DNA from: Escherichia coli
GTDB taxonomy: Bacteria > Pseudomonadota > Gammaproteobacteria > Enterobacterales > Enterobacteriaceae
Assembly (NCBI RefSeq): GCF_003334335.1
Contig: NZ_QOWQ01000180.1
Strand: one strand, 5' to 3'
DNA length: 501 nt
This document shows, piece after piece, positions 45 to 501 of this stretch; positions within the stretch are counted from its first letter, which is position 1; every line of letters begins with the position of its first letter. Below the pieces are notes generated by a model, which was not told where the DNA came from, searched no databases, and saw only the letters and a list, made by a program, of their open reading frames with translations. A program made the translations under genes and the position numbers.

Positions 45-239
45 ATGACATTTGTTCATCAGGTGATGCTGTACTTCTGTACGGCGGTCTGTGTGCTGTA
101 TCTTCTTTCGGGTGGGTACAGGGCAGTGCGCGATTTCTGGCGCAGGCAGATTGATAAAAGGGCCGCAGAGAAAATCAGCGCCAGTCAGTCAGCCGGAGCA
201 AAAACAGAAGCCCCACTCATTCCGGAACAACCTTCTTAA
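45..239 (+). CDS. Hypothetical small membrane protein (64 aa) with one predicted N-terminal transmembrane helix, a basic juxtamembrane segment and a Pro/Glu-rich C-terminal tail
   Basis: Seen in sequence: ATG at 45 is the first start after an in-frame TAA at 36..38, and the ORF ends in a double stop TAATAA at 237..242. A weak purine-rich SD-like stretch GGTAAGAAA (34..42) lies just upstream. The translation MTFVHQVMLYFCTAVCVLYLLSGGY has a roughly 18-residue hydrophobic core (residues 7-24) followed by RAVRDFWRRQIDKR, which by the positive-inside rule suggests N-out/C-in topology. An in-frame ATG at 66 is an alternative start. No homologue recognised from memory. Confidence 0.55.
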   Translation: MTFVHQVMLYFCTAVCVLYLLSGGYRAVRDFWRRQIDKRAAEKISASQSAGAKTEAPLIPEQPS

Positions 240-252
240 TAACCCCTTTCAA

Positions 253-259
253 CGAGAAA
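253..259 (+). promoter_or_regulatory. Putative weak ribosome-binding site for ORF2
   Basis: CGAGAAA, with its GAGA core about 8 nt upstream of ATG 265, sits in the 25-bp intergenic spacer after the ORF1 TAATAA stop. Confidence 0.3.
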
Positions 260-264
260 ATCCT

Positions 265-501
265 ATGTCAGAAATAAAATCGCTGGTCACTGCTGAGGCA
301 GTGAAGGAAGTCCTGCGCTCTGAAGAAGTCCGGAGCGCACTGAAACAGCAACTTCGGCAGAACCTTGAGGCGCGTCTTGATGCAGAAGTGGATTCAATTC
401 TGGATGAATTGCTTGGTGCACAGCCGGAACCATCCCCGGAACTGCTTCCGGAACCACAGGCGGAAGATGTCACCACGGAAAATGGTGATATTCAGCCGGA
501 G
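265..501 (+). CDS. Hypothetical acidic protein, 3'-partial (79 codons or more, continues past the window end): N-terminal amphipathic helix or coiled-coil-like region followed by a Pro-Glu-rich low-complexity linker
   Basis: Seen in sequence: ATG at 265 with a weak SD-like GAGA (254..257) about 8 nt upstream. The frame stays open to the window edge. Translation: MSEIKSLVTAEAVKEVLRSEEVRSALKQQLRQNLEARLDAEVDSILDELLGAQPEPSPELLPEPQAEDVTTENGDIQPE. Leu/Val/Ile recur at i, i+3/4 spacing (L26, L30, L34, L38, V42, I45/L46, L49/L50), typical of an amphipathic helix. Codons are E. coli-typical (CTG, GAA, CCG, GCG). It lies 25 bp downstream of ORF1 on the same strand, consistent with an operon. It is missing from the supplied track only because it has no in-window stop. 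Confidence 0.6.
   Translation, partial: MSEIKSLVTAEAVKEVLRSEEVRSALKQQLRQNLEARLDAEVDSILDELLGAQPEPSPELLPEPQAEDVTTENGDIQPE
424..459 (+). repeat. Imperfect 12-bp tandem repeat (3 units) inside ORF2, encoding the Pro-Glu linker
   Basis: Seen in sequence: CCGGAAC recurs at 424, 436 and 448 with exact 12-nt periodicity. The units are ccggaaccatcc / ccggaactgctt / ccggaaccacag, encoding PEPS / PELL / PEPQ. Confidence 0.55.

What the first reader, a model, noticed from the sequence alone, without database searches (positions are those of the whole stretch)
220..459. Shared Pro-Glu motif between ORF1 C-terminus and ORF2 linker, mirrored by a DNA repeat TTCCGGAAC
ORF1 ends in PLIPEQPS and ORF2 carries QPEPSPELLPEPQ. 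At the DNA level TTCCGGAAC occurs at 220..228 (ORF1 tail) and at 446..454 (ORF2 linker), with further CCGGAAC copies at 424 and 436. This could reflect a common short linear motif in both proteins (for example a shared binding partner) or past duplication or recombination between the two genes. It may equally be coincidence from Pro-Glu codon choice (CCG GAA).
Basis: seen in the sequence. Interest (0 to 1): 0.35.

Follow-up and report, generated by a model that had tools for sequence, protein, structure and literature searches.

The report
Chance Pro-Glu codon repeat, prophage genes
The repeated DNA word is just the common codon pair for proline-glutamate, occurring in the floppy, fast-changing tails of two neighbouring small prophage genes of E. 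coli. It is not a shared functional motif, so the finding is ordinary.

Summary
TTCCGGAAC lies at 220 and 446, and CCGGAAC at 222, 424, 436 and 448. In both genes CCG-GAA is read in frame as Pro-Glu.

The window comes from the late region of a lambdoid or Stx-type E. coli prophage, between nanS-p and holin S. ORF1 is a DUF1378 membrane protein. ORF2 is a DUF826 protein, with a confident N-terminal helix and a 45-residue acidic Pro/Glu-rich tail predicted to be disordered. The segment is that tail, not a linker.

Across 95 distinct haplotypes:
- 69 have no CCGGAAC in either gene.
- 5 keep the ORF2 copies, but ORF1 stops one codon earlier (PLIP*).
- 1 keeps the ORF1 PEQPS ending with an ORF2 tail that has no CCGGAAC.

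The ORF1 stop codon sits at codon 59, 60 or 64 in homologous DNA. The ORF2 9-mer lies in an indel-prone stretch that is absent from most tail variants. In-frame deletions bounded by the CCGGAA(C) words occur.

Null models that respect codons give a shared word of 9 or more bases in 7-21% of trials. The similarity between the two tail peptides is matched by 81% of shuffles. I found no RNA structure and no conserved cis element.

Verdict: this is a coincidence of composition and codon choice in low-complexity tails, plus slippage in ORF2. Interest is low.

The parts
45..239 (+). ORF1, a DUF1378 family protein of 64 aa. It has an N-terminal hydrophobic helix, a basic juxtamembrane stretch and a short Pro/Glu-containing tail.
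   Evidence: Pfam PF07125, E 5.1e-35, residues 1-59 of a 59-position model, so EQPS lies beyond the model. RefSeq annotation. Hydropathy and charge. Variation is concentrated at third codon positions in the TM half.
220..228 (+). ORF1 copy of TTCCGGAAC, read (A)TT-CCG-GAA-C(AA) = Ile-Pro-Glu-Gln.
   Evidence: Present in 19 of 95 haplotypes. Other alleles read CCG-TAG (stop after Pro), TAG in place of CCG, or carry a 12-nt deletion.
265..501 (+). ORF2, a DUF826 domain protein. It is 96 aa in full and the gene continues to position 555, beyond the window.
   Evidence: Pfam PF05696, E 2.4e-28, covering residues 1-57 only. RefSeq annotation. Strong third-position variation in codons 1-52.
265..417 (+). 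Conserved helical N-terminal domain of DUF826 (residues 1-51).
   Evidence: AlphaFold helices 10-17 and 20-50, with pLDDT 83-96. 25 invariant columns, 24 of them within residues 1-51.
418..501 (+). Start of the acidic Pro/Glu-rich C-terminal tail of DUF826, predicted to be disordered (residues 52-96). Net charge is -11 with no Lys or Arg.
   Evidence: pLDDT 40-48 and no secondary structure. Composition. Multiple in-frame indels among homologues. Weaker codon-position bias than in the core.
424..459 (+). Imperfect array of three 12-nt (4-codon) units, CCGGAACnnnnn = P-E-(P/L)-x. It contains the CCGGAAC copies at 424, 436 and 448 and the 9-mer at 446-454.
   Evidence: Spacing of 12 and 12 nt, with 72-78% identity between units. 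Below the TRF threshold. One variant lacks exactly one unit, and another lacks 27 nt between CGGAA words. The three-copy form is in 24 of 95 haplotypes.
189..198 (+). ORF1 copy of TCAGCCGGAG(C), the longest word shared by the two genes. Here it is read Ser-Ala-Gly.
   Evidence: It serves as an internal control, because the shared word is in a different reading frame in each gene.
492..501 (+). ORF2 copy of TCAGCCGGAG(C), read (I)-Gln-Pro-Glu. This is one of the two distal QP[ED] sites that are conserved among tail variants.
   Evidence: QP[ED] in 19 of 24 variants at residues 77-79.

Best explanation
The repeated words are a by-product of coding, not an element in their own right. CCG and GAA are the locally preferred codons for Pro and Glu. 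Wherever Pro-Glu is followed by a codon starting with C (Pro, Leu, Gln), the DNA reads CCGGAAC. A preceding ATT or CTT codon then makes TTCCGGAAC.

Both genes end in Pro/Glu-rich tails under weak sequence constraint. They are adjacent small genes of a lambdoid or Stx-type E. coli prophage: DUF1378, a single-pass membrane protein, and DUF826, a helical domain with an acidic tail predicted to be disordered.

In ORF2, three P-E-x-x codon quartets form a short imperfect 12-nt array that is specific to one allele group. The short direct repeats in it promote in-frame deletions by slippage, so tail length drifts.

In ORF1, the Pro-Glu exists only because this minority allele places its stop codon four codons later than most alleles do.

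Shown here: family identity, frame, allele distribution, indels and the null models. Inferred: slippage as the mechanism of the indels, disorder of the tail, and cytoplasmic location of the ORF1 tail from the positive-inside rule.
For: Identity and context:
- The window matches E. coli prophages and Stx phages, between nanS-p and holin S.
- Pfam finds DUF1378 and DUF826.

Codon use:
- In the local coding sequences CCG is 53 of 84 Pro codons and GAA is 78 of 126 Glu codons.
- The five PE dipeptides of ORF2 are CCGGAA three times, CCGGAG once and CCAGAA once.

Null models:
- P(shared word of 9 or more bases) is 0.13, 0.21 and 0.07 under the three codon-aware nulls.
- The best local score between the tail peptides is 18, reached by 81% of shuffles.

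Homologues:
- Among 95 haplotypes, 69 have no CCGGAAC, 19 have both 9-mers, 5 have only the ORF2 copies and 1 has ORF1 PEQPS without ORF2 copies.
- The ORF1 stop sits at codon 59, 60 or 64 in alignable DNA.
- In 74 of 95 haplotypes ORF1 has CCGGAA only out of frame, as Ala-Gly-Ser.
- The window-type ORF1 end is found in 52 of 5426 complete E. coli genomes and the window-type ORF2 tail in 29, against 1006 genomes that carry the gene pair.

Tail properties:
- The tail has pLDDT 40-48.
- It has many in-frame indels, and the 9-mer site is xPE in only 4 of 24 variants.
- A 12-nt unit deletion and a 27-nt deletion are bounded by CCGGAAC and CGGAA.
- More distant relatives have shorter tails without PE repeats.
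Against: - At the plain nucleotide level the four CCGGAAC copies are strongly clustered. None occurs elsewhere in 10.5 kb.
- The window has more repeated 9-mers than shuffles do: 5 pairs, P about 0.01.
- The 11-mer shared by the genes is itself uncommon under the codon nulls, at 0.4-1.7%.
- Pro/Glu-rich composition is kept in most alleles of both tails.
- The two distal QP[ED] sites and the M-[ML] C-terminus of DUF826 are conserved. Some part of the DUF826 tail is therefore under selection, although not the part in the finding.
- The window-type ORF1 and ORF2 alleles are usually found together (19 of 20 and 19 of 24). Linkage over 200 bp explains this, but it does not prove independence.
Confidence: 0.86

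Rival explanations
1. A shared short linear motif: P-E or L/I-P-E in both tails binds a common partner, for example during late phage development.
For: Both tails are Pro/Glu-rich in most alleles (KPEEP or KPEDP in DUF1378; EPEPE or QPE in DUF826). The genes are adjacent and co-oriented. DUF826 keeps QP[ED] at residues 77-79 and 89-91 in 19-20 of 24 variants.
Against: - The position is not conserved. The ORF1 PE of the finding lies beyond the stop codon of most alleles and beyond the end of the Pfam model.
- The ORF2 LPEP site is gapped or different in 20 of 24 variants.
- Divergent DUF1378 tails (AEPKAPPLP, AVPKSTSLP) have no PE.
- Peptide similarity is not above shuffles, P = 0.81.
- More distant DUF826 relatives have short tails without PE repeats.
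Confidence: 0.06
2. The ORF1 copy was created by duplication, gene conversion or illegitimate recombination from the ORF2 tail, or the reverse.
For: There is a 9-nt exact match extending to 14 of 17 bases. The two window-type alleles are usually found together. Lambdoid phages are highly mosaic.
Against: - The identity is far too short to indicate transfer of a tract, and it is explained by codons.
- L036 has ATACCGGAAC and PEQPS in ORF1 with an ORF2 tail lacking any CCGGAAC. Five haplotypes have the converse arrangement.
- No ORF1-ORF2 deletion fusions joined at the 9-mer appear among 221 homologous proteins.
Confidence: 0.03
3. TTCCGGAA, a perfect 8-nt palindrome, is a cis-acting site: a protein-binding or restriction-type site, or two RNA segments that pair over 218 nt.
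For: The 8-mer is self-complementary, and the two copies could pair (I5). The minimum-energy fold of 200-470 does pair the two regions. Only 2 copies occur in 10.5 kb, both here.
Against: - The fold is no more stable than shuffles: z = -0.82 for 200-470 and -0.46 for 412-468.
- There is no Rfam match.
- The word is absent from both positions in 69 of 95 haplotypes of the same gene pair.
Confidence: 0.02
4. The two genes are joined at the translation level. The ORF2 frame is open through most of ORF1, and a +1 shift at AAA-AGG-G (154-160) would give a membrane-anchored DUF1378-DUF826 fusion. The in-frame SQPE at 187-198 would then be a further QPE copy.
For: - The ORF2 frame is open 62-81 codons upstream in 94 of 95 haplotypes, and also in the most divergent locus.
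- GA[TC]AAAAGGGCC is kept in 91 of 95 haplotypes.
- AGG is a rare codon (established knowledge).
- A single-A deletion at this run gives an annotated fusion protein, P0032.
- PHROG 8301 covers both parts.
Against: - There is no third-position signal for the ORF2 frame upstream of its ATG.
- Variants that create stops are not depleted: 2 seen against 4 expected.
- One haplotype has a stop between the site and the ATG.
- The conserved nucleotides are explained by conserved ORF1 residues (IDKRAAEK).
- The fusions may be homopolymer sequencing errors.
- The prophage carries tRNA-Arg(UCU), which would relieve a pause at AGG.
Confidence: 0.03

Closest known systems
Pfam DUF1378 (PF07125) and DUF826 (PF05696): small proteins of unknown function encoded between nanS-p and the holin gene S in Stx and other lambdoid phages
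   Same: Both ORFs match at full significance. Gene order and neighbours are the same as in phage 933W and Stx2a phages. The literature held here records them only as coding regions of unknown function (PMC10462455).
   Different: Nothing differs at family level. This window carries minority alleles of both C-termini.
Low-complexity acidic Pro/Glu-rich disordered regions, for example the EP repeats of trypanosome procyclin (Pfam Trypan_PARP)
   Same: The composition is similar: 18% Pro and 15% Glu, almost no Lys or Arg, and a short-period P-E-x-x pattern. There is a weak compositional hit of residues 53-91 to Trypan_PARP.
   Different: The hit is not significant (E = 0.3). There are only three imperfect units and no long array. 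Nothing suggests common descent or function.
Short coding tandem repeats that change length by replication slippage (in-frame microsatellite or minisatellite polymorphism)
   Same: There are direct repeats at a 12-nt period. Natural variants lack exactly one unit, or a tract bounded by CGGAA, and all remain in frame. Tail lengths range from 23 to 44 residues.
   Different: The array is too short and diverged to score as a tandem repeat in TRF. There is no evidence of on/off phase variation, because all the changes are in frame.

Membership tests
DUF1378 (PF07125) | Significant match to the family profile over its full length | tested here: met
   E 5.1e-35, residues 1-59 against model positions 1-59 of 59. 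PHROG 494, E 4.8e-37. The last five residues, which include the Glu of the PE of the finding, lie outside the model.
DUF826 (PF05696) | Significant match to the family profile | tested here: met
   E 2.4e-28, residues 1-57 against model positions 1-59 of 75. PHROG 311, E 5.2e-37. The PE-rich tail is largely outside the matched part.
Conserved short linear motif shared by two proteins | The motif is conserved in position among homologues of each protein | tested here: not met
   The ORF1 PE is absent from most alleles, which end PLI* or PLIP*. The ORF2 LPE site is xPE in 4 of 24 variants.
Conserved short linear motif shared by two proteins | Similarity between the two peptides exceeds what composition gives | tested here: not met
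   The best ungapped BLOSUM62 score is 18, and 81% of shuffled tails reach it.
Conserved short linear motif shared by two proteins | A demonstrated common binding partner | not testable with these tools
   This needs interaction experiments.
Tandem repeat array | Head-to-tail copies detectable by a tandem-repeat finder | tested here: not met
   TRF at minimum score 30 finds nothing in L001 4900-5700. The repeat finder sees 3 copies at a 12-nt spacing with 72-78% identity.
Tandem repeat array | Copy-number variation among relatives | tested here: met
   L168 lacks exactly one 12-nt unit, and L169 lacks 27 nt between CGGAA words.
Recombination or gene-conversion tract between the two genes | Extended nucleotide identity beyond what coding explains, with joint inheritance of the two copies | tested here: not met
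   Identity is 9 nt exact and 14 of 17 extended. P is 0.07-0.21 under the codon nulls. The two copies are found separately in 6 haplotypes.
Structured RNA or cis element | Stability above shuffles, an Rfam match, or conservation of the site | tested here: not met
   z = -0.82 and -0.46. No Rfam match at E up to 1. The word is absent in 69 of 95 haplotypes.
Procyclin EP-repeat family (Trypan_PARP, PF05887) | Significant profile match | tested here: not met
   E = 0.3, a compositional match only.

The most novel reading that the evidence does not exclude
The most novel reading not excluded is that DUF1378 and DUF826 are made partly as one membrane-anchored protein by a +1 ribosomal shift at the conserved AAA-AGG-G (window 154-160).

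In that frame the ORF1 DNA reads ...KGPQRKSAPVSQPE... and runs without a stop into ORF2. The CAGCCGGAG word shared by the two genes (189-199 and 492-502) would then encode the same QPE motif in the same frame. The Pro/Glu-rich stretches would be flexible spacers of a tethered protein.

The current evidence shows only an open frame and a plausible shift site. The tests for selection on that frame were negative.
Probability: 0.03. Interest if true: 0.55.

Novelty: not a real feature. Interest (0 to 1): 0.08.

Why it matters
It matters little. The result removes a possible false lead, that a motif or a recombination event links two uncharacterised Stx-phage genes. It also records that the only conserved parts of the DUF826 tail are the two distal QP[ED] sites and the M-[ML] C-terminus, not the proximal PE repeats. 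Both genes sit just upstream of the lysis cassette of clinically important Stx phages and have no known function. Knowing which residues are constrained could guide anyone who studies them.

Tried and rejected
- I guessed from memory that K-12 Qin ynfO is a DUF826 homologue. This was wrong: ynfO is DUF3950, and Qin has neither gene.
- A literature search for DUF826/DUF1378 returned two papers. The one I read (PMC10462455) has only a passing mention, and the other matched DUF1378 once and was not read. A search for 933W L0106 found nothing. A search on small ORFs between nanS-p and the holin found nothing new.
- Tandem Repeats Finder found nothing.
- Rfam at permissive E-values found nothing.
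- RNA folds of 200-470 and 412-468 were no better than shuffles.
- NCBIfam, PADLOC and PDB sequence searches gave no informative hits.
- I tested whether the ORF2 frame upstream of its ATG is coding. Codon-position variation and the count of stop-creating variants gave no support.
- The fusion proteins P0032, P0068 and P0228 looked interesting. For P0032, the one checked at DNA level, the cause is a single-A deletion in a homopolymer run. P0068 has the same protein junction, and the frame change in P0228 near the ORF1 end was read from its protein sequence only. I treated all three as mutation or sequencing error.
- No promoter-like site was found in L001 4850-5700. The terminator-like hits inside ORF1, including one on the minus strand that overlaps the 9-mer, are weak consensus matches and I did not pursue them.

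Full report
**What is in the window**

The 501 bases match E. coli prophages and Stx-converting phages. There are 1006 of 5426 complete E. coli genomes and 306 phage records with matches, and 100% identity in eight genomes. In an identical copy (L001), the window lies between a SASA-family esterase (nanS-p) and a class II holin, followed by lysozyme, a lysis protein and terminase. This is the late region of a lambdoid prophage. Phage 933W has the same arrangement downstream of stx2AB.

ORF1 (45-239, 64 aa) is a DUF1378 protein (PF07125, E 5.1e-35). ORF2 starts at 265 and ends at 555, outside the window. It is a 96-aa DUF826 protein (PF05696, E 2.4e-28, residues 1-57 only). PHROGs lists both as unknown function. 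NCBIfam, PADLOC and PDB sequence searches add nothing. The one paper I read that mentions them records only that such coding regions exist between nanS-p and S (PMC10462455).

**Check of the observation**

TTCCGGAAC is at 220 and 446, and CCGGAAC is at 222, 424, 436 and 448. In both genes CCG-GAA is in frame: ATT-CCG-GAA-CAA (I-P-E-Q) in ORF1 and CTT-CCG-GAA-CCA (L-P-E-P) in ORF2. The three ORF2 copies are spaced exactly 12 nt apart, giving P-E-P-S, P-E-L-L and P-E-P-Q. Unit identity is 72-78%, which is too weak for Tandem Repeats Finder.

At the bare nucleotide level the clustering is real. No shuffle of the window reaches 4 copies, and the surrounding 10.5 kb has no other copy on either strand. 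A repeated 9-mer as such is unremarkable, however. 39% of dinucleotide shuffles have at least one, and the window has two other exact repeats of 9-10 nt.

**Does coding explain it?**

In the coding sequences of this prophage segment, CCG is 63% of Pro codons and GAA is 62% of Glu codons. I ran three null models:
- Keeping both proteins and redrawing synonymous codons gives a shared word of 9 or more bases in 13% of trials.
- Shuffling codons within each gene gives 21%.
- Shuffling codons only within the two tails gives 7%.

The best local similarity between the two tail peptides scores 18, and 81% of shuffles that preserve composition reach it.

It is TCAGCCGGAGC (189-199 and 492-502), read Ser-Ala-Gly in ORF1 and Gln-Pro-Glu in ORF2. 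In 74 of 95 haplotypes the only CCGGAA in ORF1 is out of frame, as GCC-GGA-AGC. Words rich in CCGGA therefore recur here regardless of what peptide they encode.

I collected 221 homologous proteins and 166 loci from viral contigs and reference records. These gave 95 distinct haplotypes spanning both genes:
- 69 have no CCGGAAC in either gene.
- 19 have both 9-mers.
- 5 have the three ORF2 copies but an ORF1 that ends ...PLIP, with TAG where the window has GAA.
- 1 (L036) has ORF1 ...PLIPEQPS, encoded ATACCGGAAC, with an ORF2 tail that has no CCGGAAC.
- 1 (L081) has a single CCGGAAC in each gene and no 9-mer.

The 3' end of ORF1 is alignable DNA in which the stop codon sits at codon 59, 60 or 64. 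One group has a 12-nt deletion. The EQPS extension lies beyond the end of the Pfam model.

In complete E. coli genomes the window-type ORF1 end is found in 52 genomes and the window-type ORF2 tail in 29. The gene pair itself is in 1006 genomes.

**The DUF826 tail**

An alignment of 24 representative variants has 25 invariant columns, 24 of them in residues 1-51. After that come many in-frame gaps of 2 to 12 residues. The site carrying the ORF2 9-mer (L61-P62-E63) is xPE in 4 of 24 variants, gapped in 9 and different in the rest. By contrast, QP[ED] at residues 77-79 is kept in 19 of 24 variants and at 89-91 in 20 of 24. The C-terminus is always M-[ML].

AlphaFold, run with this alignment, gives a confident helix over residues 10-50 (pLDDT 83-96). 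Residues 51-96 have no secondary structure and pLDDT 40-48. The tails are 18% Pro, 15% Glu and 9% Asp, with 6 Lys/Arg in 2740 residues. Their lengths range from 23 to 44 residues.

Variation by codon position shows strong purifying selection in the core: 51 changes at third positions against 15 and 14 at first and second. In the tail the bias is much weaker: 53 against 32 and 28.

A profile search of 1.8 billion representatives finds only 60 relatives. The closer ones keep an acidic tail ending ...PEPATML or ...PEPATLL. The more distant ones have short tails without PE repeats.

**Slippage**

Two natural variants show what the short direct repeats do. L168 lacks exactly CCGGAACCATCC, one 12-nt unit. 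L169 lacks 27 nt between two CGGAA words. Both deletions are in frame. The CCGGAA(C) words are thus breakpoints for length change in the tail, which is the behaviour expected of low-complexity coding repeats. That slippage is the mechanism is an inference from the breakpoints.

**Other readings**

TTCCGGAA is a perfect palindrome, and the two copies could pair. However, folds of 200-470 and 412-468 are no more stable than shuffles (z = -0.82 and -0.46). There is no Rfam match. The word is missing from most haplotypes.

Recombination between the genes is not supported. Identity extends to only 14 of 17 bases, the copies occur separately, and no fusion joined at the 9-mer is seen.

**A side lead**

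The ORF2 reading frame is open for 62-81 codons upstream of its ATG in 94 of 95 haplotypes, and also in the most divergent locus. This explains why 933W L0106 and many database entries are annotated as longer proteins.

The sequence AAA-AGG-G at 154-160 is conserved. It has the form of a shift-prone codon followed by a rare one. A single-A deletion there yields an annotated DUF1378-DUF826 fusion.

The tests for selection on that frame were negative. There is no third-position signal upstream of the ATG. Two stop-creating variants were seen against four expected. I therefore treat the lead as unproven, with low probability.

**Verdict**

The genes and families are already annotated, and the shared motif is not a biological feature. 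Interest is low.

Noticed in passing
window 4-48: A 14-codon upstream ORF, MKTVLIVNHNGKKL. Its TGA stop overlaps the ORF1 start (ATGA at 45-48). An upstream ORF ending at this stop is present in 78 of 95 haplotypes, and all but one of those encode a near-identical 14-residue peptide. It may be a leader peptide translationally coupled to DUF1378.
   Followed up: partly
window 67-264 (ORF2 frame), slip-like site at 154-160: The ORF2 frame is open 62-81 codons upstream of its ATG in 94 of 95 haplotypes. AAA-AGG-G is conserved, and a one-A deletion there gives an annotated DUF1378-DUF826 fusion (P0032, L170). Tests for coding in that frame were negative.
   Followed up: partly
window 189-199 and 492-501 (continues to 502 in L001): TCAGCCGGAGC is the longest exact word shared by the two genes (11 nt). 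It is read in different frames: Ser-Ala-Gly in ORF1 and Gln-Pro-Glu in ORF2. It is uncommon under the codon-aware nulls, at 0.4-1.7%.
   Followed up: partly
L001 5493-5552 (window 493-552, partly outside the window): The conserved parts of the DUF826 tail are the distal ones: QP[ED] at residues 77-79 and 89-91, and an invariant M-[ML] C-terminus. Relatives at lower identity also end ...PEPATML or ...PEPATLL. This may be a real C-terminal docking tip.
   Followed up: partly
window 120-161 and 274-276; L001 1415-1666: Three of the five Arg codons in ORF1 are the rare AGG, and Ile4 of ORF2 is ATA. The same prophage carries tRNA(CAU, annotated Ile), tRNA-Arg(UCG) and tRNA-Arg(UCU) about 3.4 kb upstream.
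   Followed up: partly
L001 5565-5603 and 4912-4932: A terminator-like hairpin with a T-rich tail lies between the DUF826 stop and the holin gene. A minus-strand hairpin followed by T8 lies just after nanS-p. Both are outside the window.
   Followed up: no
phage records PV340545-PV340554: In these phage records the features under the match are labelled 'head completion protein' and 'hypothetical protein'. PHROGs and Pfam give both proteins no known function, so 'head completion protein' looks like an annotation error.
   Followed up: no
window 249-476, minus strand: A 75-codon antisense ORF, rich in Ser, Gly and Cys, is the mirror of the ORF2 coding sequence. There is no evidence that it is a gene.
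   Followed up: no
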